A DNA stretch of 64,000 nucleotides from positions 7,768 through 71,767 of the forward strand of contig JBLIMJ010000001.1 of assembly GCA_047638595.1 (NCBI GenBank), written 5' to 3'. Position 1 is the stretch's first letter, and each line of letters begins with the position of its first letter. Below are positions 17,748-56,789 of the stretch, piece by piece. This DNA comes from Acidimicrobiales bacterium (GTDB lineage: Bacteria > Patescibacteriota > Minisyncoccia > Phycocordibacterales > UBA918). The translations under genes were made by a program, and so were the position numbers. The notes beneath the pieces are model-generated. The model made no database searches, was not told the DNA's origin, and saw only the letters and a program-made list of their open reading frames with translations.

Positions 17748-17929
17748 ATTTAAAATGTATAGTTAGTCTACACCATATAGATACGTTTTGAATCAAAGTT
17801 TATTTCAAAAAACAGCTGCATACTCAAAGTGTAGTACATTTTGGTGTGTTTAGCTGTTTTGTCCCAAAATGGGCAAAGGAGGAGGTATAGGCTAAGAAAA
17901 ATAGTGTGATACCCTCCTATTCCTTTGTC

Positions 17930-18098
17930 TAGAAGGTGTCAAAAATTACTTCTTCCTGGATTTCAGCTTTTTTAAGTAGAGCAAAAGTAAACATACCTCC
18001 AACGATGAGGACAAATAATACACTGGCAATAATTATTGCCTTCCTATCCACCTTATGTGGGGACACCTGTTTCTGACCATTATTTTCAAATTGATCCA
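17930..18098 (-). CDS. Possible small membrane protein (56 aa)
   Basis: Minus-strand reading gives MDQFENNGQKQVSPHKVDRKAIIIASVLFVLIVGGMFTFALLKKAEIQEEVIFDTF. Unlisted short ORF. Confidence 0.2.
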
Positions 18099-18165
18099 TA
18101 GTTACTATAAGTTATAGAATAAATATTCTACACTAATAATGTATTGAGTATACATCAAAATATCA

Positions 18166-19794
18166 CTACTGACTTTCAGTATGATCGTTACCGATAAATA
18201 CAGAAATATTTGCTAGACTCGTTGTAAGGTCATCAGGACGAGCAGACAACAACGCTCCATCAAGCAACTTACTCAATACACGGGCATCTTCTTGTATAGC
18301 AATGTCATACACTATTACAGTGTGTTTCTTAGACTCTTCAAAGTCAGACTTCAGCGCCTCTATTGCATACCCTTGAGACTCAAGTTCTGTTTGCATAGCT
18401 GCGGCAACGCCCGGGGTATCACTTGAATTGATGAGTATCAATTCAAAATCTTGGGAAACCACCTCAGCAGCAGGAATAGACACTTCTTCTACTTGCGGTG
18501 TACTTGCACTATTTTTTTCATAAATAATCTCTTCCGATGATAGAGTTACCGACGTGTCGGGATTTTCAATAGTAACCTCATAATCGCGCTGTAAAGTAGT
18601 TACCTCAATAAGGAAATACCATACTGCTAAAGAGGCTACTATTAGTAAGAGCGCACTTACAAAGAATTTTTTATAGGTGAGTACAAAACTGAAAAGCGTC
18701 TTTACGGTATCGAGAAAAGCATGCGTTTTTGAAAGGCGTGATTGCAAATCTTTTACCCCACCCAGTAGCGGGGCTCGTACCGACGGACGACTCTCAATAA
18801 CCACATCTCCTTGCATGGCAAAGCGTTGTGACCGAGGCACGTACTCTTGCACTCCAGACATAGAAAGCATTTTTCGTACATATGTGCGGATACTCCAAGT
18901 GAGGAGGAAAATAATTGCCGCTAAACTACCAAGGACCATCAACACCGCTTTGACTGGTATGACCCAAAAATAGGTTGGCTGTGTCACAAAATTACGAACA
19001 TCTTGTCCATATGCCAGCGTCAGCACTGCTGTATAGCGACCGATGTCAGTAAATGACTGCTCTCCTTTCCAGGTAAAATTGAACTGACGAATACTCTCGG
19101 GTAATACATTGCCAAAATGAGTTTGGTGGTTAATCGGTACAATACCACGCTCCTTCCCCCACATGTTGGTAATAACAATTTCTCCTTGTGGCTGTAGATG
19201 TACATTCCCTTTATTTTCAAACCGTACTTCAAAATCAACTTCAGGGACATCAAAAAATGTTTTCTCTGTCCTAAAGGTGCGAACATTTCCTTTTTCTATA
19301 ATATCTCCCGCAACACGAACAAAAAACAATGAGGTGACAATCTGAGCAGTCTTTACTTGAAATGGATTGTCAGAATTAAGTGGACGGGTCCCAATCATAA
19401 TCGCAGCATAATGTCCTCCAGGAGATGCATCTTCAGGTACATTAATCGTTAACGGTACCGCAACACTACTTTCGCGAGGTATAACGTAAGGTTCTTCAGA
19501 AACAGTGATCCATTCGGCAAGTGTCTTTCCTTCTGTAAAGTCTTCAAAGACAGGTAAGAACTTTCCTTGTCCAGTTTCTCCTTGTGGGGCAAAATTTACA
19601 ACATTAGCATAGACAGTAATATCTTGCGGATTGTTGTTTATTACCTTTACTGAACTATTCCATGCCTGCAACGGAACCGCTGACATCTCAAAAAGTGTTG
19701 GGGACACACTTAATGACAATCCGGCAGCAAACAAACTCTGTGGCAGTAACAGAGTTCCAAGTATCAATACTGTAAATATTTTATGCTTCATCAT
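18166..19794 (-). CDS. Cell-surface protein, DUF916/DUF3324-like two-domain ectodomain with 2 TM segments and a C-terminal LytR_C-like domain
   Basis: Signal peptide. The N-terminal half is paralogous to the products of 19781..20803 and 53866..54813 (LSVSP..., KVINNNPQDITVYANVVNF, WITVSEEP...PGGHYAAIMIG, FENKGNVHLQPQGEI). The C-terminal about 90 aa (ELILINSSDTPGVAAAMQTELESQGYAIEALKSD...VIVYD...ARVLSKLL) resemble LytR_C. Confidence 0.5.
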   Translation of the reverse strand: MMKHKIFTVLILGTLLLPQSLFAAGLSLSVSPTLFEMSAVPLQAWNSSVKVINNNPQDITVYANVVNFAPQGETGQGKFLPVFEDFTEGKTLAEWITVSEEPYVIPRESSVAVPLTINVPEDASPGGHYAAIMIGTRPLNSDNPFQVKTAQIVTSLFFVRVAGDIIEKGNVRTFRTEKTFFDVPEVDFEVRFENKGNVHLQPQGEIVITNMWGKERGIVPINHQTHFGNVLPESIRQFNFTWKGEQSFTDIGRYTAVLTLAYGQDVRNFVTQPTYFWVIPVKAVLMVLGSLAAIIFLLTWSIRTYVRKMLSMSGVQEYVPRSQRFAMQGDVVIESRPSVRAPLLGGVKDLQSRLSKTHAFLDTVKTLFSFVLTYKKFFVSALLLIVASLAVWYFLIEVTTLQRDYEVTIENPDTSVTLSSEEIIYEKNSASTPQVEEVSIPAAEVVSQDFELILINSSDTPGVAAAMQTELESQGYAIEALKSDFEESKKHTVIVYDIAIQEDARVLSKLLDGALLSARPDDLTTSLANISVFIGNDHTESQ

Positions 19795-20803
19795 TTTTAC
19801 TCAAATCTAAATCATGGTCCTGATTATCAGACGTCCCCTCTCGTACATACATTGCGACATTTTCAGAGCCATCTCCCACATCTCCCCCACCGTCATATCG
19901 TCGATGCGCATACAAAGCAATAAGAATCGTCAGTACGAGAATTATAAAGAAAATTATAATAAGCTGTTTCAAAGGCATAATGTAGAAAAAGGCTGTGTCG
20001 TGTACAGAAGCAGTTAAATGTTCTCCATACTCAACCGAGAGAAATGCTTTATATTTACCCAATGTCAAAGCATCAGGTACATCCATAGAAAATGATGCTT
20101 CACCATCTGCAGGTACCTTACTTTGCTGAACATTTACTGGAAGCGAGTCAACCTCAACACCCTTATTATTATAGAAGATAACCTCGCCTGAGGGGATGAT
20201 GTCGACTCCACCTGGATTAGTAAGTGTGAACAACATGGTTTCTCCATCAGTTGCAGTTACAAATCTATCTACATCAAACTTTTCTAGTCGAAGAAATTGA
20301 TCTTGTGTTTGATCTACTGAGATATGAACAATAGTCCCCGGGGCCAAACCCTGAGCAACTTTTGATGCTGCATTGGGTCTATTTGAACCTTCTGCAAAAC
20401 CTATAAAAACGTTGTAGTCACCCGGTTCAGTCAATGGATTCATACGAATAGTGAACGGTACCTCACGCACTTCACCTGGTTTCAATTCCATGCGCTGACG
20501 TGATATCTCTATCCACGTAGTTGCTGTAGTGCCCTTGTCAGCAACCACTTTTTGTTCAAAACTCTCAACCACACCTCCTTCCATCGCTACATTATTTACC
20601 GACGCATACACACGCACCATTCGTTCCGAGGTGTTGGTGAGCGTTATATATTCCGTAATTATATCTCTCTTCTCAAGATTGAAGTTCAACACCAAAGGGG
20701 TCACAAGGTGATTAGCAGCAAAAACACTTGTGGTTGTCCCTACAAAACAGACAACAGCGATTACGGCGACGGAAAATAAATGTAAATTTGAAATTTTTAT
20801 CAT
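19781..20803 (-). CDS. Cell-surface protein, DUF916/DUF3324-like, C-terminal TM anchor
   Basis: Signal peptide, two beta-rich domains (TLTNTSERMVRVYASVNNV, WIEISRQRMELKPGEVREVPFTI...PGDYNVFIGF, TNPGGVDIIPSGEVIF), then C-terminal TM FIILVLTILIALYAHRRY. Overlaps both neighbours by a few bp, so it is operonic. Confidence 0.5.
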   Translation of the reverse strand: MIKISNLHLFSVAVIAVVCFVGTTTSVFAANHLVTPLVLNFNLEKRDIITEYITLTNTSERMVRVYASVNNVAMEGGVVESFEQKVVADKGTTATTWIEISRQRMELKPGEVREVPFTIRMNPLTEPGDYNVFIGFAEGSNRPNAASKVAQGLAPGTIVHISVDQTQDQFLRLEKFDVDRFVTATDGETMLFTLTNPGGVDIIPSGEVIFYNNKGVEVDSLPVNVQQSKVPADGEASFSMDVPDALTLGKYKAFLSVEYGEHLTASVHDTAFFYIMPLKQLIIIFFIILVLTILIALYAHRRYDGGGDVGDGSENVAMYVREGTSDNQDHDLDLSKNDEA

Positions 20804-20804
20804 A

Positions 20805-23800
20805 CTAGAATACTGGTACTGCTATATAAGTAATAGTGTTGTAATAATCTCCCGATGGCTGTTCATCACCAATTTGGATTTTATATACAATATCATGAGA
20901 TTCGTTCGCGGGGGTAGATCTATACATCACTTCTTGTGGTACGGTTGAAAAAGCTGCGTATGTATCATCAGCGCCAAACCTCACATCTCCTCCCTGAAGG
21001 AGGTCATCACCAACATGATATCCGAAACAGCCTATGGCTGAAGATGGACACCCACCAGAATTCCAACCAGTTGGAGCAGCATTTGTTCCAACAACAGTCG
21101 GGACAGTTGAACCGGATGAATTTGTTAAATCTTGGTCAGTGTACATAAGAATCTGGTATCCTTCAGTAGCATTTGTGTCCACAGTCAACCTCTGTGCTGC
21201 TTCTATCTCAATATCGAAAGGTATCGACCCAAAAAGAATCGACGTTGCTGTCGTTGTTGCATCAGTAGTAATTCCTTCGGTCACTTCACCAGAATCTAAC
21301 CCTGCAAGGGTGAATACGAGACTTGATCCTTCAATTTGAACACTGGGATAGGTTGAGCTTGCTGATGCTGAAACGTCATTTGTTACGTTATAGAGTCTGA
21401 AGTAATACACCGCGTTCACACGTGGATTTTTGGGTTTTAGTGTAAATTCATACTCCATGCTCGATAATAGTGGTTGTGTATGTGTAGAAATGGTCGTTGG
21501 AATTTCATTATGTAAACCACAGCCATTACCGACACCTGCGGTACACGCATCAGCATCACTTAAAACAGCAAAATCAATAACGGCATTGTCATCACCTGCA
21601 CCATCCACATAACACCATGTAGAAGTGGCTGAACACAAGTGCGAAGCAACGACATCATACACTCCAGTACTGAAATCTACATACTCAGAGTATTGCAACT
21701 TGAATTTAACATTTATCCCAGGAGCTCTCTCAACCTCAATTGCAGTCGCGCGTAATTTTATTTCATTTTCTGGTGCAAGATTTACAGGAGTTTCTTCCTC
21801 AGCGCCTAGTGGAGTCAGAGGGGTGGCGTTTGTGGCATCATCGTACCACCGCCACTTTCCAATAACCGGCGTAAACCTTGCAGTTTGTAACGTTGGATAA
21901 TTATTGTAACCATCAAGCAGAGTCCCATCACTTTCAACCATTCGAAAACAATAATCAGAAAATTGTGTCGCCCCATTCTGTTCCACATGCCAATCATATT
22001 CAACGTCTTCTCCAACATCTATTGCATACGGATTAATCGCTGAGTTATTTTGCTCTTGGTATGTACCGGCCACATCAGAAACAGATATGTTTAAGGTCCC
22101 TGCCGCAGGAGTACTGGTAGCAACCTCCGTACCATCAACTACCGCACCATCGTATCCACGCCAGACAGTTCCACTACCAGGTGCTCCTATGTCAGTCCAA
22201 GATGAAATAGCCCCACAGGTGAGCACTCGCAAACCATATTGTAGTTTAAATACGGTTGTACTTTCCGGAAGTGTTGCATTGTTAATGCCTAATGTCATGC
22301 GTACACGAACTCGCTCACCTTCCCCCAGAGGGTCGTCAGTTTCGGTAATTGAGGTATTTTCACCCAAGTCTGAGGCTCCGACAGGCCAAGGATCGGTTGG
22401 ATCAATTGCATCATTATCTACGTAAAATCTATAGTAATTTTGCCGTATAGATGTTTCCGCTGTTGGCCACTCTACTACCTCTACTCTAAATTCCATGTCG
22501 TTATTTGTGTCACTTCGAAAAACTTCATAGCTAGTTGAGGACGCTATTGAAAAACCGGTATGTAACCGTGGATACGTAGTATCTGTACCTGCTGTTGTGT
22601 TGTTTCCAAAAATACTTGCGGTGGAGGTTTTTACTGTGCCTCCAATTGAAACACTGTAAATAGCAGGTTCAGGATCAGCATCAATGAATTCACCATCAGA
22701 TTGATAGGATGTCATCTCGCCAACACCTGTTTGTGTGTTTTCTATAACCCATGCGACCGACACGTGACTGGACGGTGTTTGTGCTGTATCTCGTAGTTCA
22801 AAAGTAACAGCTCCAATACTTGATATAAATACCAAATGACCTCCATCAGAAATAGTATTCAACCCTTCTCCAACCCGTTTTTGAGTATGCGTAAATGCTT
22901 TAGATATTGAATTAATTGCACTCATAGATTCAGTTTCTGCTGCACCAGAACTTGTATAAGTATGCTCTATTCTTTGTGTGCTCCAGTTTAAACCAGTGAA
23001 CTCAACAACAGCATATCCCAGATCAGCGCTTGAATCAGCGTCATCACGCTCAAATGTAGGCTGATTAGCAACGTCATCCCACTCGGCTGTAAAGAGACCA
23101 TCGTTATAATTCGTTGTATTTGGATCTTGATTTTGCTGTCCGGTAATAAAGACCACTACGTCAGAGTCGTCAGACACGTCAGTAACAACAGACCCTGAAT
23201 CAGTAAATTCTGTTGAGACAAGTGACACCTCACCAACTCCTCTTACTATCATTTCGTTATCAGTCCCAGGTAAACCAATGAACTCAACTATTTCCCAACT
23301 CACTTGTGTATTTGAAGTAGCAGAAGAAGGACGTGAGATAATGAAAGATGACGTGATATCACTTTGGTCAGAAATATAGGCAGTTACATCGTCTGCATTT
23401 TGGCCATTAGTACCCACATTGTTTCCTGCACCGGTTAAGTGTGCATTTGTAATACGGACAAAAGCGCTTGATGTAGCAGAAGGAGCTTCATAATCAACTC
23501 CTGCAGTAAGTGTTGTACTGGTCCCAGAGACTGTTTCTGTTCCTCTTTGAATATAAAAATCTTTTCGTTCTATAGTAGTAAGCTCTGCATAATTGTCGTA
23601 TACAGGCAGTGGGTCTCCTGACGAAGTAACCCTAAAGCAGTAATCTGTATCGTAATCTGCTTCAACATTTGTTTGGATTGAATACTCTAATTCAGTATAT
23701 TGGTTATTAAAAAGTATGATCGCTCCAGACGTGGCAGTTAACTCTCTTAATGCGCCCGTTCCAAGTAATGTGAAATTTTCCTCTGTCATTGCCCCATTTG

Positions 23801-25049
23801 CTGCGTTGTCTATATCTGTAGTATTACCATCGGATATATGTGAGCTTGTTGACATATCAAATGCACCGCCAGTTTCTCCAACGTTTATCCATGGACTTAC
23901 AAGATCACAGCTAACTGATTTAGCTCCGTATTCAAGAATATATTCAGTTGATGTTGAAGTCATACCACCTTTATTGGAAACCTGTAGACGCAAACGGTTG
24001 CTTGACTCAAGCTTAACATCTATAACAGCTGTATCTTCAGATCCGCCTGTTGCAGACGTTGCCCCTGTATCAGTTTCATCTCCATCATCATTTCTCCAGT
24101 GATAATGTGTTTGTGCGAGTTGTTCTGGGTCATTAGAAAAATCACTGGTATCGGTTGATACAGTCCCGTCACTAAATGCTCTACCGACATACGTTGACCC
24201 AGCCCCTACAGATATAGCACCAGTAGACACTACAACTCCAACAAAACGAGTACCTGCTCCTTGAGAAGGGGCACCATTTATTGCCCAAAAAATGTTTTTA
24301 GCGAGTGGGCCATTCGCTCCATTCTCAACACCATCTTCATTCTGAAGAACCATCTTAGCCTGAGCCGCTTGAGTCTTAGCTCCATTTATCTGAAAGATCC
24401 AGATATCAGTAGAACTACCTCGTAATATTAGGCCTGTAGCCATTGAAGTTGCACCAGTATAATTATATATACCACGACCTTTAACACCAGCAGCGCTGAT
24501 ATTGATAGCTGCCGCAGTTTCATCATATGGATGAGTGGTTTGATTGAGGGCATCTAAATAGGCCGCACCGGAGTCAATATTGGCAGCACTTAATTTAGCA
24601 TTATCAGCCGTGACAGTACCGGGCGTGGTAATACAGCCAACTGGAGTAGCAGGTGCAGTAATAGTATACATTCTTCCCGTTGTCATATTGGGACAGGTTA
24701 CAAGAGTGAGCCCTGCTGCGCCAGTTGGACTCACACCAATATTTCCTCCGAATGTAGAGAGGTTATCACCGGTAATCGCCGTCTTACCAATTGCAATAAA
24801 ATCAGCCGCTGATCCAATATCTATAGGAGCTGGGTTGTCCCATGGACCATAGGCAGACACATTTTGTGGAAAAAGGGAAAAAGCAAAAAAGAAAATAGCG
24901 AGTGTCACTGTCAGCAAGAAAATTTGTACAGGGGTACGGTAAAATGCGCTTGTGGATTTTACCTTCCCACTCTCTCTTTCCCCCGCTGGATTTTGATTAA
25001 AATTTGCTTGATGCATAATCTTGTTAGTATTATAGCGCTTTTTCCGCAA
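20805..25049 (-). CDS. Giant (1414 aa) membrane-anchored surface protein, N-terminal ice-binding-like (DUF3494-like) domain plus repeated beta-sandwich-like modules
   Basis: Cytoplasmic basic N-tail and TM helix; then IDIGSAADFIAIGKTAITGDNLSTFGGNIGVSPTGAAGLT (DUF3494-like); then T/S/G/D-rich modules starting HYHWRNDDGDE / YYRFYVDNDA / WRWYDDATN and ending YCFRV / YCFRM. C-terminus ...DYYNTITYIAVPVF. Confidence 0.7.
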   Translation of the reverse strand: MRKKRYNTNKIMHQANFNQNPAGERESGKVKSTSAFYRTPVQIFLLTVTLAIFFFAFSLFPQNVSAYGPWDNPAPIDIGSAADFIAIGKTAITGDNLSTFGGNIGVSPTGAAGLTLVTCPNMTTGRMYTITAPATPVGCITTPGTVTADNAKLSAANIDSGAAYLDALNQTTHPYDETAAAINISAAGVKGRGIYNYTGATSMATGLILRGSSTDIWIFQINGAKTQAAQAKMVLQNEDGVENGANGPLAKNIFWAINGAPSQGAGTRFVGVVVSTGAISVGAGSTYVGRAFSDGTVSTDTSDFSNDPEQLAQTHYHWRNDDGDETDTGATSATGGSEDTAVIDVKLESSNRLRLQVSNKGGMTSTSTEYILEYGAKSVSCDLVSPWINVGETGGAFDMSTSSHISDGNTTDIDNAANGAMTEENFTLLGTGALRELTATSGAIILFNNQYTELEYSIQTNVEADYDTDYCFRVTSSGDPLPVYDNYAELTTIERKDFYIQRGTETVSGTSTTLTAGVDYEAPSATSSAFVRITNAHLTGAGNNVGTNGQNADDVTAYISDQSDITSSFIISRPSSATSNTQVSWEIVEFIGLPGTDNEMIVRGVGEVSLVSTEFTDSGSVVTDVSDDSDVVVFITGQQNQDPNTTNYNDGLFTAEWDDVANQPTFERDDADSSADLGYAVVEFTGLNWSTQRIEHTYTSSGAAETESMSAINSISKAFTHTQKRVGEGLNTISDGGHLVFISSIGAVTFELRDTAQTPSSHVSVAWVIENTQTGVGEMTSYQSDGEFIDADPEPAIYSVSIGGTVKTSTASIFGNNTTAGTDTTYPRLHTGFSIASSTSYEVFRSDTNNDMEFRVEVVEWPTAETSIRQNYYRFYVDNDAIDPTDPWPVGASDLGENTSITETDDPLGEGERVRVRMTLGINNATLPESTTVFKLQYGLRVLTCGAISSWTDIGAPGSGTVWRGYDGAVVDGTEVATSTPAAGTLNISVSDVAGTYQEQNNSAINPYAIDVGEDVEYDWHVEQNGATQFSDYCFRMVESDGTLLDGYNNYPTLQTARFTPVIGKWRWYDDATNATPLTPLGAEEETPVNLAPENEIKLRATAIEVERAPGINVKFKLQYSEYVDFSTGVYDVVASHLCSATSTWCYVDGAGDDNAVIDFAVLSDADACTAGVGNGCGLHNEIPTTISTHTQPLLSSMEYEFTLKPKNPRVNAVYYFRLYNVTNDVSASASSTYPSVQIEGSSLVFTLAGLDSGEVTEGITTDATTTATSILFGSIPFDIEIEAAQRLTVDTNATEGYQILMYTDQDLTNSSGSTVPTVVGTNAAPTGWNSGGCPSSAIGCFGYHVGDDLLQGGDVRFGADDTYAAFSTVPQEVMYRSTPANESHDIVYKIQIGDEQPSGDYYNTITYIAVPVF

Positions 25050-25326
25050 ATAATATTTAAAGTACCCTTATCAAGACTAAGTCTCATTTGATAGTCCAGA
25101 CGGTCAGTAGAAGCTACTACATCATCATGAACCGTAACAACTCCTAAACCGTCAATAGTGGTTTCATTAATTACAGCACCTAAGTGAGGTGAATGGTAAC
25201 AGTGGGTAAGAATGGAAGATTTATGATTGACTGTAGGTCTGAAAATACTAAAACGACTGTTTTTGTATAAGTAAAAAGCATCGGTTTTTAAACCTCCATG
25301 TGTTCATGTCGGTCAGCATATACATT

Positions 25327-27393
25327 TTAACCCACTTCATTTGTAGTTGTTCCCATAAAAGGTGGTATAACTACGTCATTTATGTGTGATACATCTTCCT
25401 CTGGTTTTACTAATACTTCGGCAGTGAGTGCTGCTTCCACAGCATCCAGTGTCGACGTGGCTGCCATATCAAGTGGAGCAATGACCAAATCACCCGAAAG
25501 TAGATCGGAAGTCGTAGCTGTAGTTGGATTTGTCGACGTTCCAGCACTAGATGGAACTGTCTGGACATCTTCAGTCTCACCATCACGCGTGGATGGTTTA
25601 GCTTGAATAAGTGCCCGTGTCTCACCTGTCTGGTCAGGCTCAGGAACCTTTTCTGGCATTTCTGCAGGAAGACTTCCCAGAGCAAAAGACGATCCGGAAC
25701 CAAAATCATATCCAAGAGTGCGCACGTCCCCCACCTTATCAGTACTATCATATACAAGAACAAAACGAGGATTTGCCACACCTGAGCCATCGCTGTCAGC
25801 AATGTAGCTCACTTTCTGTGTTTTCTGGTCAAAAAGTGACACTTTCCAACCTTCAGCAAACTGCGTTTGCCACATGATGTATCCATCTCGCATCTGTGGT
25901 GTGATGTCATTCATATCATTATCAGTCAGTTGCATCACTTCTCCATTGTCCGAAAGCATTATCTCCCAATTGTCACCAATCCATGCCTGCCACATAACAA
26001 TATCTCCATACGCAACAGGTTCTGTGTTGTTGTATGTAGCATCAGTCAAATACTCAACTGAACCATCATCCACTGTGTATTGTGCAATCTGGAAACGGTC
26101 ATTTAGCATACTATGCCACACAATAGTATCTGAGATACCATCGTACTGTGGTGCGGCATCATCAACAGTATTATGTGTAATCTGAGTTGTTTTACCTCCA
26201 ATAGTGACAAATATCTCAGTATCACCGTCACTGTCAGGTGCCGAAAATACCCTGTCTTCTATATACTCTGGTGCGGTCTCAGCCTCTGAACAATAGAACG
26301 ACCCATCACCGACAGCAACACACTCCTTGTCTGAAAACTGATGTCTGTTATCGTTGCTGATTACTGTAGCTACCTCACTTACGACAGGAACTACCTTTGT
26401 GGTTGTTGATGCAACAGTTTCTTGTACTGTGGTAGCCTCAGCTGTATCCACCTCCGCAATTTCTTCGGTTGTAGATGAATCTTCTGATGATTCTCCGTCC
26501 GTCTCTGTTTCTTCTGTTTCTGTAGCGTATTCTGTCTCGCTAGTTTCTTCTGATGTAGACTCAGCAGCAGTTTCATTAGCACTTCCAGATGTGTTAGTGT
26601 CTTCAGAATTTTCCTCAGCCTGATCATTGTCAGCAACTGTTCCTTGCGTTGTAGAAGTGCCTGCAACTTCACCTACAGACCCTTCAACAGTATTACTCGA
26701 ACCTGAAAGGAGTACACTTAACTCCTCCAAATCTGTATCGTCAGCAATTTCAAGTTCAGGAGAACCGGATTCTTCAACATCATCCTCTACGGGGTCCTCA
26801 GGCCCTTCTTCAGAGTCTTCCTCTGAAGAACCTGATCCGCCTGAAATAGATTCATCTAAGGTTTCTGGCCATTCATCACCTTGTACTAAAATAGCATCTT
26901 CACCAACTGACTCTTCCATATCTTCATTTGCTTCTTCATTACTGTCTGAAAAAATGTCTACAGGCTCTTCAATATTACTTTCTGAAGGTTCATCTAAAAT
27001 TAGGTCAACCTCCTCCATTTCACCTTCTGATTCTTGTTGAGTTTCAACAACAGATTCTTTCACATCTTCAGCAACCTCTTCTCCTGGCTCTTCTTCTAGA
27101 TCTGGTGCTAACTCCGGTTCTGGTTCTGGCTCTTCTTCTAGCTCTGGTGCTAACTCCGGTTCTGGTTCTGGTGCTAACTCCGGTTCTGGTTCTGGTTCTG
27201 GTTCTAAAGCAACTTCTTCAACAGTGTCAGCCTCTATAGCAACATCCTCTGCTGCAAGCGCAGGAACTACAGGATGAAGTACAAAAAATATGAAGAGGAA
27301 CGCAACTACATACCGTACAGCAACTACATCAAATATCACGTTATATAACGTAGATTTCTGGACTCTATTTTGCTGTACGCCTGAACAACTCAT
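25327..27393 (-). CDS. Membrane-anchored secreted protein with an extreme acidic PEPEPE-type linker and a C-terminal W-rich repeat (propeller-like) region
   Basis: N-terminal TM, then PEPEPEPELAPEPEPELAPELEEEPEPEPELAPD..., a long D/E/S/T-rich region, then a repeated W..W.GD.WEI / YIMWQTQFAEGWKV motif. Confidence 0.5.
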   Translation of the reverse strand: MSCSGVQQNRVQKSTLYNVIFDVVAVRYVVAFLFIFFVLHPVVPALAAEDVAIEADTVEEVALEPEPEPEPELAPEPEPELAPELEEEPEPEPELAPDLEEEPGEEVAEDVKESVVETQQESEGEMEEVDLILDEPSESNIEEPVDIFSDSNEEANEDMEESVGEDAILVQGDEWPETLDESISGGSGSSEEDSEEGPEDPVEDDVEESGSPELEIADDTDLEELSVLLSGSSNTVEGSVGEVAGTSTTQGTVADNDQAEENSEDTNTSGSANETAAESTSEETSETEYATETEETETDGESSEDSSTTEEIAEVDTAEATTVQETVASTTTKVVPVVSEVATVISNDNRHQFSDKECVAVGDGSFYCSEAETAPEYIEDRVFSAPDSDGDTEIFVTIGGKTTQITHNTVDDAAPQYDGISDTIVWHSMLNDRFQIAQYTVDDGSVEYLTDATYNNTEPVAYGDIVMWQAWIGDNWEIMLSDNGEVMQLTDNDMNDITPQMRDGYIMWQTQFAEGWKVSLFDQKTQKVSYIADSDGSGVANPRFVLVYDSTDKVGDVRTLGYDFGSGSSFALGSLPAEMPEKVPEPDQTGETRALIQAKPSTRDGETEDVQTVPSSAGTSTNPTTATTSDLLSGDLVIAPLDMAATSTLDAVEAALTAEVLVKPEEDVSHINDVVIPPFMGTTTNEVG
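27090..27230. repeat. Tandem DNA repeat (about 42-nt unit with shorter sub-units) inside the CDS
   Basis: ggctcttcttctagctctggtgctaactccggttctggttct is repeated, followed by ggtgctaactccggttctggttct units; it encodes the PEPEPELAPE repeats. Confidence 0.7.
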
Positions 27394-27978: not shown

Positions 27979-28039
27979 AACCTACAGTTTCACACTACAG
28001 GGGACATCCGATGTCTCCTGTAGTGTGAAACTGTAGGTT
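27979..28039. repeat. REP-like giant hairpin (29-bp stem, 3-nt loop), related to the hairpins flanking the Y1 transposase
   Basis: aacctacagtttcacactacaggggacat-ccg-atgtctcctgtagtgtgaaactgtaggtt, with one G-T wobble. Shares the core tacagggga...tcccctgta with 51962-51989 and 52664-52691. Lies just downstream of the T4P operon. Confidence 0.6.
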
Positions 28040-28173
28040 CACGATACATTCTCGTATTACCCCTTGATACAGCCTGGAGCGTATTAATGTCCTCCTCTAT
28101 GCTTTGTATGATGCAGTTATATATACAAAAACAAGGACCAGGAGTCCTTGTTTTTGTATGTCATTTGTTAGCA

Positions 28174-28632
28174 TTACTTTGTCACACTAATCAATTCACC
28201 GTTGTAAGTAGTTTGAGCACATACTGATACCCTTCCTGATGAACTCTGCATAACTGCATACCCTGTATAGGTGGCACTTGAGGCTGTTGGGTCAAGTGGT
28301 AAATCATTAAGGTACACTCTGCCAGAGACAAGTGGGTCTAATGAGGTTCCGGCACAAATTGTATCTACAAGACAAATATCTTCCCCATCATCTAGACAGG
28401 TAGTACCTACTGCAATACCACTCGGCAAAGCTCCACTATTATCGAGCGAATACTGAATGATGCCGTCAAGGATTGCACGTACATCACTCTGTCGCTGCAC
28501 ATTCTGTGCTTCCCCAAATTGTTTTGCAGGGTTGATAGCTACAATCACAATTGCAGCAAGTATTGCCATAATGGCAATTACTAATAGGATTTCAATGAGC
28601 GTAAATCCTGACTCTTTTTTACAAATATTCAT
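28174..28632 (-). CDS. Type IV pilin / pseudopilin (prepilin-type N-terminus)
   Basis: MNICKKESG|FTLIEILLVIAIMAILAAIVIVAINP (prepilin peptidase site with Glu at +5), and a Cys-containing C-terminal domain. Confidence 0.75.
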   Translation of the reverse strand: MNICKKESGFTLIEILLVIAIMAILAAIVIVAINPAKQFGEAQNVQRQSDVRAILDGIIQYSLDNSGALPSGIAVGTTCLDDGEDICLVDTICAGTSLDPLVSGRVYLNDLPLDPTASSATYTGYAVMQSSSGRVSVCAQTTYNGELISVTK

Positions 28633-28711
28633 TGTGCATGTTGTTTAATATACTTCAGTATACCAATACTTAAAAGTAATCTATTGTTCTTATACACACC
28701 ATGTATGTGCA

Positions 28712-29158
28712 TTATTGTGTAATAATTATTATTTTATTCTCTGAGCTTGATGCGTTTATCAGAAGCCGGCCATTGGCGGTGAGGTTTACAAAATAACCAG
28801 TTCCATTTGAAGTACATGTACTTGCACACAATGGATCAACTGGTGCACTTACAAGATACGCTTCCCCATCAGTCAACACAGACAAATCAATCACACTTGT
28901 GCAATTCAGGGCGTCGGTTGCACAAATTTCAGTTTCCACAGTTGTGATGGAGGATGGAAATGAACCTTCATTATCTGCTGCGTACTGGTAGATTGCTGAC
29001 ACAATACTAAACACATCAGACTCACGTTGCGCATCACGACTATCTGCAAGTTGTTTTGGTGGATTGATAGCAAAAATAACAATCGACGTAAGAATCGCCA
29101 TTAGAGAAATTACTAATAGGATTTCAATGAGTGTAAATCCTTTTTCCTTTTTCATGTA
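28712..29158 (-). CDS. Type IV pilin / pseudopilin, paralog of 28174..28632
   Basis: MKKEKG|FTLIEILLVISLMAILTSIVIFAINP. Start taken at the internal ATG (29158), not the ORF-track start (29281). The C-terminal domain is paralogous (QRESDV...QYAADN). Confidence 0.75.
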   Translation of the reverse strand, partial: YMKKEKGFTLIEILLVISLMAILTSIVIFAINPPKQLADSRDAQRESDVFSIVSAIYQYAADNEGSFPSSITTVETEICATDALNCTSVIDLSVLTDGEAYLVSAPVDPLCASTCTSNGTGYFVNLTANGRLLINASSSENKIIIITQ

Positions 29159-29180
29159 TGTATGCAGAGTTCTGTGCATA

Positions 29181-30389: not shown

Positions 30390-30397
30390 ACGTTATA

Positions 30398-31311: not shown

Positions 31312-31314
31312 ATA

Positions 31315-32127: not shown

Positions 32128-32131
32128 GACA

Positions 32132-32554: not shown

Positions 32555-32569
32555 GTACGAAGAGACTCG

Positions 32570-33622: not shown

Positions 33623-33626
33623 ACTA

Positions 33627-35306: not shown

Positions 35307-35326
35307 AATATATAGTCACCATACCA

Positions 35327-50574: not shown

Positions 50575-51663
50575 TTAAAACGTTGGTGTTGCTATGTACG
50601 TTAGGACTGCAGAGTAGTCGTCTCCAGCTTCCTGAAGCGCAGAGATTTCTGTCTTGAATCCAATAGTAGTAGTACCAACACCTACACCTGTTCCACTTGC
50701 TGGACCATCATTTCCCATAACAGCTCGGGGAGTTGTTGTTGCGCCAATGAATTGACCTGCAACAAACTGAGTTCCTCGCGAAGTGATAGTAGTATCATCA
50801 GATGAGATACCCCACCATCCGTATGTGCTATCAACACCTAATGTAGGTGATGTGGGTGATACCCAGTTTCCTGGAACATCAGCGTCATTGATTCCATCAA
50901 TGTCAGCACCTGTTGATGATTCTAGTGCACCGTCCACTTGGACAGTAACTACATATCCATTAGATGCGTTTGTTGAAACAGACAGCTCATGAGCTGAAGA
51001 CGTTGCAACTAATGCATCTAACTTACCAAAGGTAACTGAAGTTGAAGCAGCAGCACCAGTTGTAGTTGCTCCTCCTGAACTTAGTTCAGTGTTAGCAGCT
51101 GTACCAGATACCGTAAAGGTAAAGATGGTATCAACTGTAGCTGTAACTGTAACTGCAGTAAGAATTACAATTCGTGTTGATCCTGTGTCAGTCATGGATC
51201 CTCCGAGAAGAATCTCGTATGAACCTTCAGAACCAGGACTTGTGACGAAGTTTGTAACACCTACGACAACATCGACAACGCTTGCAGCTGCAATGCTACC
51301 AGTAGCAACAGTCAAGGTAACAATTTGACCTGCACCAGCTGCTGATACGTTAGCACTAATGTCTGACGAATCATCATCAATAGTTACATCACCATCAACG
51401 ATTGAACCAATTCCTGTAAACCCTGAAGGGAAAGTGAAAGTGATTGTCTCCCCGTTCGCCACTCCAGTTGGAGTGACGAAAGAAAAAGTATGTGTTGGTG
51501 CAGCACTAGGCGATGAATCAGTAATTGTGTCGCTAAACGAACTCACGTTCGCAGCGTCCACAAAGCGAAGTGACGGCAAGCCAAGCGACCATAAAAGAAT
51601 CGCGAAACCTGCAATCATTGCAATAGTTTTGAGCATTCCGACAGATTTTTCTGTTCGAAACAT
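50575..51663 (-). CDS. Secreted T/S/G-rich surface protein with a WxL-like C-terminal domain
   Basis: Signal peptide, then low-complexity T/S/G/V-rich beta-type sequence. The C-terminal block (...GWWGISSDD...DDYSAVLTYIATPTF) is shared with the C-terminus of the 1414-aa protein (...DYYNTITYIAVPVF). Confidence 0.45.
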   Translation of the reverse strand: MFRTEKSVGMLKTIAMIAGFAILLWSLGLPSLRFVDAANVSSFSDTITDSSPSAAPTHTFSFVTPTGVANGETITFTFPSGFTGIGSIVDGDVTIDDDSSDISANVSAAGAGQIVTLTVATGSIAAASVVDVVVGVTNFVTSPGSEGSYEILLGGSMTDTGSTRIVILTAVTVTATVDTIFTFTVSGTAANTELSSGGATTTGAAASTSVTFGKLDALVATSSAHELSVSTNASNGYVVTVQVDGALESSTGADIDGINDADVPGNWVSPTSPTLGVDSTYGWWGISSDDTTITSRGTQFVAGQFIGATTTPRAVMGNDGPASGTGVGVGTTTIGFKTEISALQEAGDDYSAVLTYIATPTF

Positions 51664-52706: not shown

Positions 52707-53909
52707 TTAACCTGTCCAGTTGAAGAGCAGTATGGAAAAATCCTCTAGGCCGACTCTGTCGTTGCCGTTTATATCAGCTGGGGGGTTTGAGTTGCCGCCT
52801 GTTGTTCCCCACCAGAATATTAAAATGGAGAAGTCAATCAAATTAATAAGACCATCACGGTTTAGGTCTGAAGGTGTTGTTGGTGACCCATCCACTCCTA
52901 AAAATAACTGTAACGTAGAACTAAAACTACTTTCTGTAGTAAGAGAACCTGAACCAAGAATAAAACGGGCACGAGCTGTATATTCAGCTGCAGAGAGTCC
53001 ACTTGTATCAAAATCAATGTTCCAATAACCACCACTATCAGAAATGGTTGTGAGAACTTGGTCACTATCGCCAATGTGGACTTCAAGTGAAGTGTTCTGA
53101 ACAGCCTGTCCTGCAAAAGTGATAGTATCCCCAGGATTGATTGTAGAATCAGATACTACAATTGTTGGTGGAACAAGAATCCCTGCAACCTTTGTGATTG
53201 CTCCTTGCGTCACATCAAATGTAGTACCAAATGTAATCGATCGAATGTTATCGTCATCTTCAACCCAAAAACCCATTGAAATAGTCCCGGGTGAAGTATT
53301 AGAGGTAAACTCAAAATTACCAGCACTGTCAGCCTTCACGGTACCCACAGATTTAGCATCAAGAATAATGTTGACTTTCGCTCGCGGGATAGTTTTACCA
53401 GTTACATTTACCTGAGTATCACCAAAATCCTCATCACTTCCGCCAGACGGCTGAGTACCGCCACCTGAAGAACCGCCACTTCCAGAACCAGCTGGCTCAA
53501 TGGTACAGTCTGCATTACAGAAGTCACCTGAAATATTATTCCCATCATCACACTCCTCAGCATAGATAGTCTGCAAAATACTGTCCCCGCAATACGGTCC
53601 AAAATCACAATCCACATCGCACTGTCTACCTAAGATAGAAGTGCTGTATGCACCTGTTTCACCCAACACATCACAAGTCTCATCAACATCAACAATTTCA
53701 TTTCCACAGATACTTGTCGTTAAACTAGTTGTTGCAATATAACCCCCAGATATTACTTGCGCAGTAGCTACCTGACTTAGCAAGAAAAAACACCCTACTA
53801 CAGCAAGTGCAGCAGGTAGGGCGTTTAACTCATGCAAAAAAGTAACAAATTGTCTCATGGTAAAACTACGCCCGTGTCCGCCTACGACGTTCCCTGTACG
53901 TATGCGCAA
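52707..53909 (-). CDS. Secreted protein with Myxococcus-type cysteine-rich repeats, Ig-like domains and a C-terminal type-I dockerin
   Basis: Signal peptide; CGNEIVDVDETCD...YCGDSILQTIYAEECDDGNNISGDFCNADC (CxxCGDG...ECDDGN pattern); C-terminal DLNRDGLINLIDFSILIFWW / DINGNDRVGLEDFSILLFNW. Confidence 0.55.
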   Translation of the reverse strand: MRIRTGNVVGGHGRSFTMRQFVTFLHELNALPAALAVVGCFFLLSQVATAQVISGGYIATTSLTTSICGNEIVDVDETCDVLGETGAYSTSILGRQCDVDCDFGPYCGDSILQTIYAEECDDGNNISGDFCNADCTIEPAGSGSGGSSGGGTQPSGGSDEDFGDTQVNVTGKTIPRAKVNIILDAKSVGTVKADSAGNFEFTSNTSPGTISMGFWVEDDDNIRSITFGTTFDVTQGAITKVAGILVPPTIVVSDSTINPGDTITFAGQAVQNTSLEVHIGDSDQVLTTISDSGGYWNIDFDTSGLSAAEYTARARFILGSGSLTTESSFSSTLQLFLGVDGSPTTPSDLNRDGLINLIDFSILIFWWGTTGGNSNPPADINGNDRVGLEDFSILLFNWTG

Positions 53910-54813
53910 GGAGTAACATCAGAACAAGTAAAGATAAGATTGGAAGCAATACAGACAGCTTGTGTGCTGATGAGAGACCAGTAAATCCAAATCCAGCAGT
54001 TTGCAATGTCCCGTACGGCAGAATATTGAGATTAAGTTCACCTTGATACTTCACATCTTCATCATTCATGATTTCATAACGTGCAAGGTACGAACCTGTA
54101 GGTAGACGAGTCGGAACCTCAGCTACAATTTCTTCAGTTCCAAATGGTTCAATTTTTGTCAATTTACCCTTATTTGTTGTCTCTTCAAGTAATACAGTCC
54201 CTGAAGTATCATAAATTTTAAATACAATTTCTGAAGGAGATACATCAACGTTACCTGTATTTTCAAGGAGCATCGCAAAATTTATTTTTCCTGGAAAGTA
54301 AAGCCATCCGACTTTTGTACCTTCATTTAGATCATTGACCCCTACTTTACGAAGTCTAAAATCTTTTATAACTTTATCAATAACATGTAATTCAATATCA
54401 ATTTGAGCGCCGAGAGATATATTAACCGCACCTGTAGCAACAGCATCGTCAGTTGCCCCAGTTTTAATTCTTATAGCTCCTGTATACGTTTTAAAATCAG
54501 CATCATCGGGTACGGTAACACGGACAGTCATAGGAACCTTTTGTTCACCACGAGGGAGCGTAAAAGTTTCCCCTTGAATAATCTCAATCCAGTCAGATAT
54601 AGCTGGTGCGTCAACAGTAATAGATGCTTTTAGAGGTGTAGTGGGGTCTCCTCGAACAAGAAGGATTTGTTGTTCATAGGTCGAATTTCGAGTAAGACTC
54701 GTATTTCGAACAAATGGTGGAGTGACCCCAAAACCAGCCAGCACAGAATCAGCACCAAAGAGTACAAATATCACAATTGCTAATAGTACAGTTTTTGTAA
54801 AGAGGGTAGTCAT
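53866..54813 (-). CDS. Cell-surface protein, DUF916/DUF3324-like, C-terminal TM anchor (third paralog)
   Basis: GFGVTPPFVRN..., WIEIIQGETFTLPRGEQKVPMTVRVTVPDDADFKTYTGAIRIK, LENTGNVDVSPSEIVF, then TM plus RERRRRTRA tail. Overlaps the downstream gene by 44 bp. Confidence 0.5.
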   Translation of the reverse strand: MTTLFTKTVLLAIVIFVLFGADSVLAGFGVTPPFVRNTSLTRNSTYEQQILLVRGDPTTPLKASITVDAPAISDWIEIIQGETFTLPRGEQKVPMTVRVTVPDDADFKTYTGAIRIKTGATDDAVATGAVNISLGAQIDIELHVIDKVIKDFRLRKVGVNDLNEGTKVGWLYFPGKINFAMLLENTGNVDVSPSEIVFKIYDTSGTVLLEETTNKGKLTKIEPFGTEEIVAEVPTRLPTGSYLARYEIMNDEDVKYQGELNLNILPYGTLQTAGFGFTGLSSAHKLSVLLPILSLLVLMLLLAHTYRERRRRTRA

Positions 54814-54908: not shown

Positions 54909-56789
54909 CTACCAATCAGCAGGTTCGGCTGTCTTTGCAGTGAATGTATTCTCCCCAGTGTATGCTCCGGCTAATGTAATTGCCACAGGCACTTCAATTC
55001 CCCAGAATGTTACACCTAGTGACTGTGTAGCAGTGGACGTTGATTTTTTAATATCAATCTCTAGTTCTACTGGTGTAGAAGAAGAAAGTATGAATCCGCT
55101 ACTAGTTGCTGATCCGTACGTTACTGATGAAGTTGCAAACACCTGATAATTGGCTTGAATTGTTGAAGATGATGAGTTTGGACACGTAATTGCCGAGGTG
55201 TATGTTCCACACATAGCTTGACCTGAGAGCATTTGATCCATACCTACATTTCCAACTGCCCGCACAGTAGTAGTCGCAACTAAAGGATCTGTCCTATCTC
55301 CTGGTTCAAGAGAACCAAATGGAATTGCTGCTGTATCAAGTACAAGCGCAAGGAAACTAACTACATCTTGGGCAATTGAACTTGTTGCAAGTGTTCCAGT
55401 TGCAAAGTTGTCGTCAACTGGTGCCACAGCTGCAGACCAGTCACTGGCAAAGTGCACGGTGTTTGTTGCTCCACCATCAGTAGGGTCAGCAATGTACCAA
55501 AGCGGGAATGTGCAATCAAACCGCATAGTTAAGTCAGTTGCTCCTAAACAACTTGTTGTAGATGCTGTACATGCGACATTCCAAGTAGTCGTTGGTACCG
55601 TACTTGTATAACAATCATTTGCATCATATTCTCCAGACGCATCACAATTATCCCACCCACCAGGAAGATTGGACCTAAATACTGATATTTCATATCCTAC
55701 TAATTCGTCGCCAGCACTTGCATTTAAACAACTATTGTTGTCCGAGGCATTGAAATAGAGTTCCATACCTGTTGTTTCTCCAGCTTCCACAGTCAGCGTC
55801 ATGTCAGCACCATTATTAAGGGTTATGTCACTGTCTGAAACAAAGGGTGTTGCATTTGCTACAGTTAAAACTGAGTCAGCTCCCTGTTGGCCTCCCAAGG
55901 CGACATGACCATGGTTATCCACGATGTAACCATATGAACCGTAGTTCTGGTCTCGCGTCGGAATTACAATAGTATATGCACCACTTTGTTGTGTCGCGGT
56001 AAAGGTGGACGTTGCAAGCGTTGTTGCGTTACAACTTGTACTTGTTGCTGAAAAGCTTGCAGTTGAACATACATGTAACTGTATGGTGTCAGCTGCATCC
56101 ACAACATCACTATCTGATGAGGTAGCATAGAATGTGACCGAATTACCAGGTAATCCAGGTGAATCATCTGAAAATGCTACTAGAACTGGGCGGTGATTCA
56201 CGTTGAATGGTGAGGCTGTTGTAGCTGTTCCTTGTTTATAGGTCGTGCTACAACGTGGACTTACCGGGTCGTCGTCACAAATCCACGCGTACCAGTCATT
56301 TGACTCTGCAAGACCCTCACTTGTTGTGGTAGTAGCAGTTACCGCAGACCCACTTGGTGTACTCGTTGAAACCGCCCACTGGGTCGTTGATGTTGGACTA
56401 CAATCAGGTGGTGCAGTTCCAAGTGACTCAGGACCTGCTGCGGCATTTGGTGTTGGCAGATTTGCTGTATTACAAATCAGCAAGAAGTATGGTGCACCAT
56501 TGGAGTCAGCACCAGTTGCTGTCCATGAAACAGTATCACCTGAATTAGTTGGTGTTGTTGTGGAGGATTCAAATAACTCTTGCGCATCTATAGTCCACTG
56601 AGGAGGAGTGTTTAACACTGTGATTGATGTAGTAGCGACACCTTGTGCTTCTACCTGTTGTAATTCTTGTGCACCCAAATTGAGAAGAAAAACAAAAGCA
56701 AAAACCACCACTCCTATAAATGAAGTCAAAACCGTTATCTTACCTGCAGTGTGTAAGTACTTTGGAAACTCTTGCATGTTGTACGACAT
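54909..56789 (-). CDS. Large (626 aa) T/S/A-rich membrane-anchored surface protein
   Basis: N-terminal signal-anchor ITVLTSFIGVVVFAFVFLLNLGA, then a long T/S/A/G/D-rich beta-type sequence with scattered Cys pairs. Confidence 0.55.
   Translation of the reverse strand: MSYNMQEFPKYLHTAGKITVLTSFIGVVVFAFVFLLNLGAQELQQVEAQGVATTSITVLNTPPQWTIDAQELFESSTTTPTNSGDTVSWTATGADSNGAPYFLLICNTANLPTPNAAAGPESLGTAPPDCSPTSTTQWAVSTSTPSGSAVTATTTTSEGLAESNDWYAWICDDDPVSPRCSTTYKQGTATTASPFNVNHRPVLVAFSDDSPGLPGNSVTFYATSSDSDVVDAADTIQLHVCSTASFSATSTSCNATTLATSTFTATQQSGAYTIVIPTRDQNYGSYGYIVDNHGHVALGGQQGADSVLTVANATPFVSDSDITLNNGADMTLTVEAGETTGMELYFNASDNNSCLNASAGDELVGYEISVFRSNLPGGWDNCDASGEYDANDCYTSTVPTTTWNVACTASTTSCLGATDLTMRFDCTFPLWYIADPTDGGATNTVHFASDWSAAVAPVDDNFATGTLATSSIAQDVVSFLALVLDTAAIPFGSLEPGDRTDPLVATTTVRAVGNVGMDQMLSGQAMCGTYTSAITCPNSSSSTIQANYQVFATSSVTYGSATSSGFILSSSTPVELEIDIKKSTSTATQSLGVTFWGIEVPVAITLAGAYTGENTFTAKTAEPADW

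What the first reader, a model, noticed from the sequence alone, without database searches (positions are those of the whole stretch)
18166..25049. Three-gene surface operon: giant DUF3494-like adhesin plus two DUF916/DUF3324-like membrane-anchored paralogs, a candidate WxL-type system outside Firmicutes
What the sequence shows: genes 25049->20805, 20803->19781 and 19794->18166 overlap by 1-14 bp, so they form one transcription unit. The first encodes a 1414-aa signal-anchored T/S/G-rich protein. The next two share a two-domain ectodomain with clear mutual conservation: (V/L)(T/S)P..F, hydrophobic-N-(T/N)S...V.VYA.V.N, WI.(I/V)S...(L/I).PGE...VP.TI...(P/A).PG.Y...I.(F/G), and (F/L)EN.GNV...P.GEI. 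Each ends in a TM helix plus a short basic tail. Established knowledge: in Firmicutes, secreted WxL proteins are encoded together with exactly this kind of partner, namely DUF916 and DUF3324 proteins that are extracellular, two-domain and C-terminally TM-anchored, in Enterococcus and Lactobacillus csc-type clusters. Inference: the C-terminus of the giant protein (...DYYNTITYIAVPVF) resembles the second WxL motif region (Y...LTW.L...P), so the large protein may be the WxL-like cargo. A third copy of the partner protein and more giant proteins occur at 53866-56789. If correct, this is an undescribed WxL-like surface-anchoring system in a Patescibacteria-like genome, in multiple copies.
Basis: partly seen in the sequence, partly recalled or inferred. 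Interest (0 to 1): 0.75.

Follow-up and report, generated by a model that had tools for sequence, protein, structure and literature searches.

The report
Giant adhesin with WxLIP-like membrane tethers
A three-gene unit conserved across one branch of the ultra-small "candidate phyla radiation" bacteria encodes a giant surface protein and two membrane-anchored partners that are distant relatives of a surface-protein holder from gut Firmicutes, but the giant's tail is a new pilin-like domain rather than the Firmicute "WxL" domain.

Summary
In detail: three co-directional, tightly packed genes encode a 1414-aa secreted protein with a DUF3494 head and two paralogous two-domain membrane proteins.

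The partners are real but remote homologs of WxLIP (DUF916). 30 of 41 family members hit PF06030, profile-profile comparison with genuine WxLIP gives 94-96% probability, and the best PDB fold match is E. faecium WxLIP1. Their second domain is not detectably DUF3324.

The giant's C-terminal domain is not a WxL domain by any test here. It has no Pfam hit, hhalign gives <3%, and the solved WxL chain is absent from the fold-search lists. It is an unnamed family (1,942 clusters) that almost always sits at the extreme C-terminus. Its fold most resembles strand-complemented fibre subunits (TLP-1b, TasA, chaperone-usher pilins).

Giant, partner and partner-paralog are adjacent in all 48 informative loci of 51 Patescibacteria species genomes. 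The DUF3494 head occurs in only one other.

My best reading is that the partners tether the giant to the cell membrane through its C-terminal domain, as WxLIP holds WxL. That binding is inferred, not shown. I rate it a new variant of a known kind.

The parts
20805..25049 (-). Giant secreted surface protein (1414 aa, TTG start): N-terminal signal or anchor, DUF3494 head, three ~190-aa repeat modules, conserved C-terminal anchor domain
   Evidence: ORF. PF11999 E = 3.5e-25. Hydrophobic segment at aa 38-64 and repeat motifs. A syntenic counterpart is present in 48/48 informative loci.
24147..24791 (-). DUF3494 / Ice_binding-like domain (aa 87-301) of the giant; a lineage-specific head
   Evidence: PF11999 scores 89.3 bits against a cut-off of 28.7. 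A single-sequence search found it in only 1 of 48 syntenic giants, L064.
20808..21428 (-). C-terminal anchor domain of the giant (aa 1208-1414), ending ...GDYYNTITYIAVPVF-COOH; an unnamed family with a pilin/TasA-like beta-sandwich fold
19781..20803 (-). Partner 1 (340 aa): signal peptide, DUF916/WxLIP-PGBD-like domain, second Ig-like domain, TM helix, conserved acidic cytoplasmic tail
18166..19794 (-). Partner 2 (542 aa): paralog of partner 1 with the same two-domain ectodomain and TM helix, followed by a cytoplasmic loop, a second TM helix and an extracellular LytR_C domain
   Evidence: BLASTP E = 2e-14 to partner 1. PF06030 E = 0.0027 and PF13399 E = 2.8e-8. TM segments at 274-304 and 367-402. 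A downstream paralog is present in 51/51 loci.
18184..18432 (-). LytR_C domain of partner 2 (aa 455-537)
   Evidence: PF13399 scores 35 bits against a cut-off of 22.2. A similar tail is present in 29 of 51 orthologous loci.
25327..27393 (-). Conserved upstream acidic secreted protein (688 aa) that precedes the giant in other genomes too
   Evidence: Syntenic 560-592-aa counterparts with a matching C-terminus. No Pfam hit.
50575..51663 (-). Small client (362 aa) carrying the same C-terminal anchor domain, ending ...LTYIATPTF
   Evidence: BLASTP E = 6e-10 to the giant's C-terminus. Profile E = 3.4e-47. Conserved ~381-aa counterparts in L065 and L066.
53866..54813 (-). Third partner-family paralog (315 aa), highly conserved, with a short basic tail
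   Evidence: hhalign to the partner family gives 94.9%, E = 4.6e-8, but only 1.5% directly to WxLIP. 1,213 homologs.
54909..56789 (-). 626-aa secreted protein immediately upstream of the third paralog; a different C-terminal domain shared with the DUF2341 giant
   Evidence: hhalign of the C-terminus against the 61398-63896 C-terminus gives 95.8%, E = 7e-9, with no relation to the A2 domain or to WxL. Synteny in L065 and L066.

Best explanation
This is a conserved cell-surface display module of Paceibacteria-type CPR bacteria.

A giant secreted protein has an exchangeable outer part, here a DUF3494 beta-helix head plus repeat modules. It ends in a conserved ~200-aa beta-sandwich domain. The two genes that follow it encode paralogous proteins that are anchored in the cell's own membrane by a C-terminal TM helix. 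Each exposes a two-domain Ig-like ectodomain whose first domain is a remote homolog of the DUF916/PGBD domain of Firmicute WxL-interacting proteins (WxLIP).

Proposed mechanism, inferred and not shown: the partners bind the giant's C-terminal domain and hold it on the cell. The likely contact is a beta-strand or hairpin from the DUF916-like domain that completes the client's beta-sandwich, as modelled for WxLIP-WxL and as seen in donor-strand-complemented pilins. The second partner adds a LytR_C domain that may contact the cell wall. A small protein with the same C-terminal domain, encoded in the same conserved supercluster, would be a second client.

The system therefore works like WxL/WxLIP. 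Only the partner is a family member; the client domain is a different, undescribed family.
For: Shown:
- Operon structure.
- Same architecture as WxLIP: signal peptide, two beta-sandwich domains and a TM helix.
- Synteny: the gene just upstream ends in the A2 domain in 48/48 informative loci, and the gene just downstream is a partner paralog in 51/51 loci, across 51 species genomes.
- The head varies while the C-terminal domain is constant: the DUF3494 head is seen in only 1 of 48 giants.
- The client domain sits at the extreme C-terminus in 143/148 representative proteins of 106-5,226 aa (many of the shortest are probably fragments) and ends in F or Y in 134/142.
- Small and large clients both lie in one conserved supercluster.

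Supporting inference:
- The published WxLIP-WxL model is itself a strand insertion.
- The least confident part of partner domain 1 (aa 71-90, pLDDT 68-75) contains invariant residues G77 and F82, and it aligns to the conserved hairpin-region motif of WxLIP.
Against: - No direct evidence of a partner-client contact. No complex prediction was possible, and co-inheritance alone would also produce this synteny.
- The client domain is not detectably WxL.
- The solved WxL chain does not appear among its structural neighbours.
- The partner's second domain is not DUF3324, and the conserved WxLIP motif NQIDKxxxYFDLK falls in an 11-residue deletion in the CPR family.
- Stoichiometry is reversed relative to Firmicutes, with two partners next to one client.
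Confidence: 0.5

Rival explanations
1. It is a true but extremely diverged WxL system. The C-terminal domain descends from the WxL domain with Trp replaced by Tyr, and it binds peptidoglycan as WxL does.
For: - The partner is a DUF916 homolog.
- The client domain is always C-terminal, as WxL is.
- Small and large clients coexist.
- Motif order is co-linear: FG, then a strand-turn G(W/Y)x-hydrophobic, then GxYxxx-hydrophobic-T(W/Y) at the end.
Against: - No PF13731 hit at E <= 10.
- hhalign gives 0.8-2.9% with 28- and 142-sequence profiles, while the WxL small-versus-large control gives 98.1%.
- A WxL HMM finds nothing in the window.
- No Trp-x-Leu motif is present.
Confidence: 0.2
2. It is a donor-strand-exchange fibre. 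The small A2-domain protein polymerises into a pilus-like filament with the giant as a tip or terminal subunit. The membrane-anchored PapD-like partners act as chaperones or base anchors.
For: - The best fold matches of the client domain are fibre subunits assembled by donor-strand exchange: TLP-1b, TasA, CsuA/B, CupB6, PapG pilin domain, CfaB and archaeal bundling pilins.
- A small, abundant-looking subunit with the same domain lies in the supercluster.
Against: - No usher-like gene was seen.
- The domain is at the C-terminus of multi-domain proteins of up to 5,226 aa rather than forming a stand-alone pilin.
- AF2 places the N-terminal strand in cis with high confidence.
Confidence: 0.15
3. 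The genes are co-located envelope proteins without a specific physical link. The partners are independent Ig-like membrane proteins, and adjacency reflects co-regulation only.
For: There is no interaction evidence. All the genes belong to a ~35-kb conserved block of surface-protein genes in which order is generally preserved, so adjacency by itself is weak evidence.
Against: - Spacing is tight: a 1-nt spacer and a 14-nt overlap.
- The triplet is invariant over species whose partners are only 28-65% identical.
- The partner family's only characterised relatives are dedicated holders of C-terminal domains of neighbouring surface proteins.
Confidence: 0.15

Closest known systems
WxL / WxLIP (DUF916-DUF3324) surface-protein clusters of Lactobacillales and Bacillales (csc clusters of L. 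plantarum, E. faecium loci A-C, E. faecalis elr)
   Same: - A membrane-anchored partner with a signal peptide, two beta-sandwich domains and a TM helix, whose first domain is homologous to DUF916/PGBD.
- It is encoded next to large secreted proteins whose conserved domain is always at the extreme C-terminus.
- Both small and large clients exist.
- The client has a variable adhesive N-terminal part.
   Different: - The client domain is not a WxL domain by sequence or by fold search.
- There are no Trp-x-Leu motifs.
- The second partner domain is not detectably DUF3324.
- The NQIDKxxxYFDLK motif is deleted.
- Two partner paralogs sit next to one client, rather than one WxLIP with two or more WxL proteins.
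- The partner tail is long, acidic and conserved, and one paralog adds a second TM helix and a LytR_C domain.
- No LPxTG protein or sortase lies in the unit.
- The host phylum is Patescibacteria.
Donor-strand-complemented fibre subunits (chaperone-usher pilins, B. subtilis TasA/TapA, TLP-1 pond fibrils, archaeal bundling pili)
   Same: The client C-terminal domain has its best PDB fold matches among these subunits. The partner fold is in the PapD-like/ASH class to which fimbrial chaperones belong. A strand-completion contact is the mechanism proposed here.
   Different: - There is no sequence similarity and no usher.
- The domain is a C-terminal module of giant multi-domain proteins.
- The partner is membrane-anchored rather than soluble.
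- Polymerisation has not been shown.
DUF3494 / ice-binding-like adhesins
   Same: The giant's head is a bona fide PF11999 domain.
   Different: It scores far below the NCBIfam ice-binding equivalog cut-off (84 bits against 400). The head is not conserved among orthologous giants, so it is a swappable passenger and not the defining part of the system.

Membership tests
WxL gene cluster (definition of Hassan & Williamson, PMC10599100 / PMC9772566) | At least one WxLIP whose first domain is DUF916 / PGBD (PF06030) | tested here: met
WxL gene cluster | Second WxLIP domain is DUF3324 / HBD (PF11797) | tested here: not met
   0/41 members hit PF11797 at E <= 0.01. Domain 2 alone against WxLIP gives 0.5%. 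A beta-sandwich domain does occupy the same position.
WxL gene cluster | C-terminal transmembrane helix after the two ectodomains | tested here: met
   AF2 helix at 278-304 and hydrophobic segments at 269-303 (partner 1) and 274-304 (partner 2).
WxL gene cluster | Conserved PGBD motif NQIDKxxxYFDLK near the N-terminus | tested here: not met
   In the hhalign alignment the motif falls in an 11-residue gap of the CPR family.
WxL gene cluster | At least two proteins with a WxL domain (PF13731) within four genes of the WxLIP | tested here: not met
   No PF13731 hit for the giant, the 362-aa, the 626-aa or the 832-aa proteins. A WxL HMM built from 13 genuine domains finds nothing in the window ORFs. 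hhalign gives 0.8-2.9% against a 98.1% positive control.
WxL gene cluster | Two Trp-x-Leu motifs on the client domain | tested here: not met
   The equivalent positions read G-Y-Q-I/V and T-Y-I-A. Trp is absent from both in the family consensus.
WxL gene cluster | Client domain always at the extreme C-terminus, in both small and large proteins | tested here: met
   143/148 representatives have the domain within 5 aa of the C-terminus. 65 are <= 600 aa and 71 are >= 1000 aa.
WxL gene cluster | Fold similarity of the client domain to a solved WxL domain (9i25 chain A) | tested here: not met
WxL gene cluster | Partner strand inserts into the client beta-sandwich | not testable with these tools
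DUF3494 / Ice_binding (PF11999) | Domain hit above Pfam's gathering score | tested here: met
   89.3 bits against 28.7, covering aa 87-301.
Ice-binding protein equivalog (NCBIfam NF045625) | Score above the curated cut-off | tested here: not met
   84.2 bits against 400.
LytR_C (PF13399) | Domain hit above the gathering score in partner 2 | tested here: met
   35 bits against 22.2, covering aa 455-537.
Chaperone-usher / donor-strand-exchange pili | Subunit with a pilin-type Ig fold completed by a donated strand | tested here: inconclusive
Chaperone-usher / donor-strand-exchange pili | Outer-membrane usher | not tested
   No usher family appeared among the window proteins scanned, but not every ORF was scanned.

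The most novel reading that the evidence does not exclude
The conserved C-terminal domain is a new class of strand-complemented anchor. It is used by nearly two thousand protein clusters, many of them giants of up to about 5,000 aa and apparently mostly from CPR bacteria. The DUF916-family partners are its dedicated membrane receptors. This would be a general, previously unrecognised way for ultra-small episymbiotic bacteria to mount giant adhesins, and the deep ancestor or sister of the Firmicute WxL/WxLIP system.
Probability: 0.3. Interest if true: 0.8.

Novelty: new variant of a known kind. Interest (0 to 1): 0.6.

Why it matters
CPR/Patescibacteria live attached to other cells, and how they mount and hold their very large surface proteins is largely unknown. 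This module would give a concrete, testable anchoring mechanism, based on three findings:
- The triplet is invariant in every one of 51 Paceibacteria-type species genomes that the scan recovered (a pattern-based scan, so not a prevalence estimate).
- The client domain family has 1,942 clusters and no name.
- The partner is related to the only known holder of C-terminal surface-protein domains.

It would extend the DUF916/WxLIP principle from gut Firmicutes to a distant phylum. It would also show that the partner can pair with a non-WxL client, which bears on how WxLIP recognises its cargo. The exchangeable heads on a constant anchor suggest a route for host-range variation.

Tried and rejected
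- The afdb50 fold library was unavailable, so the models could not be compared with predicted WxL structures.
- Profile searches of the PDB with the partner and client families found nothing by sequence.
- A WxL probe written from memory found no PDB chain. It was used only for fishing and is not evidence. A similar DUF916 probe did recover the real EfmWxLIP1 sequence, which led to genuine annotated WxL clusters on plasmids.
- The E. faecium-like record L007 is frameshifted and was dropped from the references.
- PMC12537917 mentions DUF916 only in passing.
- No paper describing the 9i1y and 9i25 structures was found.
- I considered that the 626-aa and DUF2341 proteins share the giant's anchor domain. 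I rejected this: they share a different C-terminal domain with each other.
- I considered a direct link between the third paralog and WxLIP. It is not significant at 1.5%; the link is only transitive through the partner family.
- The promoter and terminator scans are at or below chance, so they add little.
Full report
**1. What is there**

On the minus strand, three ORFs lie at 25049-20805 (1414 aa), 20803-19781 (340 aa) and 19794-18166 (542 aa). The first junction reads TAG-T-ATG, a 1-nt spacer. The second overlaps by 14 nt. No promoter-like or terminator-like site lies on the coding strand inside the unit. A terminator-like hairpin follows the last gene, although that scan is no better than chance overall.

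The giant has an N-terminal hydrophobic segment (aa 38-64), is Thr/Ala/Gly/Ser-rich and has 12 Cys. It carries a DUF3494/Ice_binding domain at aa 87-301 (PF11999, E = 3.5e-25).

The two downstream proteins are paralogs, with 24% identity over about 320 aa and E = 2e-14.
- The 340-aa protein has a conserved, acidic 36-aa tail.
- The 542-aa protein goes on to a second TM helix and a LytR_C domain (PF13399, E = 2.8e-8).

**2. The partners are remote WxLIP (DUF916) homologs**

The window proteins hit PF06030 only weakly, at E = 0.003-0.004, below the cut-off. The 340-aa protein belongs to a family of at least 166 proteins. The few that carry an organism name are mostly labelled Patescibacteria, and all 51 genome loci are Patescibacteria apart from a few probably mislabelled records. 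Of 41 aligned members, 30 hit PF06030, best E = 3.8e-7. None hit DUF3324/PF11797.

I recovered genuine WxL clusters from annotated plasmids of Lactococcus, Listeria, Enterococcus, Bacillus, Lactiplantibacillus and Melissococcus. hhalign of the CPR family against six genuine WxLIPs gave:
- 96.5%, E = 1e-9 over 280 columns for the full length.
- 93.6%, E = 2e-7 for ectodomains only.
- 94.3% for domain 1 alone.
- 0.5% for domain 2 alone.

The WxLIP motif NQIDKxxxYFDLK falls in a deletion in the CPR family.

**3. The giant's C-terminal domain is not a WxL domain**

The last ~200 residues are shared with the 362-aa protein at 50575-51663 (E = 6e-10) and with many CPR proteins. There is no Pfam hit even at E <= 10.

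An exhaustive profile search finds 1,942 clusters at E <= 1e-3. In 143 of 148 top representatives the domain is within 5 aa of the C-terminus, in proteins of 106-5,226 aa. The chain ends in F or Y in 134 of 142.

Against 13 genuine WxL domains (alignment A3), hhalign gives 0.8-2.9% with either a 28- or a 142-sequence profile. The small-versus-large WxL control gives 98.1%. They are co-linear but not significant.

- The TasA fibre, E = 3e-4.
- The pilins CsuA/B, CupB6, PapG, CfaB, FimG and PapA.
- Some non-assembling Ig domains at similar scores.

**4. Conservation**

Six further loci found by exact-protein look-up show the same order: giant, partner, paralog. Every giant with DNA available ends in the same domain.

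A scan of one genome per GTDB species returned 51 loci. All are Patescibacteria, apart from a few labels that are probably wrong. In these loci:
- The gene just upstream ends in the domain in 48/48 informative cases (E = 1e-66 to 1e-97).
- The gene just downstream is a partner paralog in 51/51.
- A LytR_C-like tail is present in 29.
- A single-sequence search with the DUF3494 head found it in one other locus only.

The C-terminal domain and the two partners are therefore the constant core, and the head is exchangeable.

**5. Wider context**

The third copy at 53866-54813 is a distant paralog of the partner family (94.9%, E = 5e-8). It has no direct link to WxLIP and is highly conserved, with 1,213 homologs.

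It sits in a conserved gene order:
- DUF2341 giant
- fn3 protein
- MacB-type ABC transporter
- 617-626-aa protein
- third partner copy
- dockerin protein
- small A2-domain protein
- cohesin protein

In other genomes this array runs straight into the acidic protein, giant and partner unit. In this window, about 18 kb of type IV pilus and two-component genes lie in between.

**6. Mechanism**

Shown: the homology of the partner, its architecture, the invariant adjacency and the strict C-terminal position of the client domain.

Inferred: the partners bind that domain and tether the giant to the cell's own membrane, probably by a strand-completion contact. Three things support this inference. The published WxLIP-WxL model is a strand insertion. 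The client fold resembles strand-complemented subunits. The least confident stretch of partner domain 1 (aa 71-90) carries invariant residues and aligns to the conserved hairpin-region motif of WxLIP. No complex prediction could be run.

**7. Novelty**

WxL systems are described almost only in Lactobacillales and Bacillales. No held paper links WxL or DUF916 to Patescibacteria.

The partner is a new, remote branch of a known family. The client domain is an unnamed family. I file the whole as a new variant of a known kind. It works like WxL/WxLIP but fails several membership tests for a WxL cluster.

Noticed in passing
window 46033-64000 together with 18166-27393: These two stretches form one surface-protein supercluster that is conserved in order in other Paceibacteria genomes. 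It runs: DUF2341 giant, fn3 protein, MacB/FtsX ABC transporter, 626-aa protein, third partner paralog, DUF4215/dockerin protein, small A2-domain protein, 353-aa TM protein, cohesin protein, two small genes, acidic protein, giant, two partners. A cohesin protein and a dockerin protein in one CPR cluster suggest a further assembly system.
   Followed up: partly
window 28000-46000: About 18 kb separates the two halves of the supercluster in this genome only. It encodes PilM, PilC (T2SSF) and PilB (T2SSE) homologs, a response regulator, Cache/HAMP histidine kinases and a periplasmic binding protein. GC dips to 0.34-0.38 over 34-46 kb.
   Followed up: partly
window 61398-64000 (-): The '832-aa' DUF2341 protein has an open frame up to the window's end and no signal peptide. 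It is the C-terminal part of a much larger protein (about 5,500 aa in L065 and L066). It shares a ~150-aa module (E = 1e-12; separately, an HY(H/R)WRNDDG motif upstream, E = 9e-6) with the operon's giant, and a distinct C-terminal domain with the 626-aa protein.
   Followed up: partly
window 17929-18099 (-): A 56-aa ORF matches the first 49 residues (55% identity) of a conserved 150-173-aa gene that follows the second partner in other genomes. The gene appears to be truncated here.
   Followed up: yes
window 52008-52661 (+): A 217-aa ORF on the opposite strand, between the dockerin gene and the small A2-domain gene, looks by eye like an IS200/REP-associated tyrosine transposase. L065 has an unrelated 136-aa Trp_repressor-like gene at this position and L066 has none. 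I did not scan it against any library.
   Followed up: no
window 20805-25049 (giant), aa 311-495, 850-1050, 1060-1240: There are three internal copies of a ~190-aa module. They start HYHWRNDDG / NYYRFYVDND / KWRWYDDATN and end Y(C/Y)FR.... The module has no Pfam family.
   Followed up: partly
whole window (source record): The exact proteins are deposited as 'MAG: ... [Acidimicrobiales bacterium]' (locus tags ACI92I_). Near relatives are labelled 'Patiriisocius sp.' and 'Azotimanducaceae'. Most of the other loci with this module (about 45 of 51) carry a Patescibacteria name (four carry only a generic 'bacterium' name), so those labels are probably wrong.
   Followed up: partly
window 19781-19892 (cytoplasmic tail of partner 1): The partner family's cytoplasmic tail is conserved and acidic (HRRYD...HD(I/L)DL, with an invariant Asp). 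Firmicute WxLIP has a short basic tail. This hints at an intracellular binding partner.
   Followed up: no
PDB entries 9i1y and 9i25: Experimental structures of E. faecium WxLIP1, alone and in an entry that also contains a 'WxL domain surface protein', are in the PDB copy (9i1y released January 2026; no date was seen for 9i25). No paper describing them is in the held library.
   Followed up: partly
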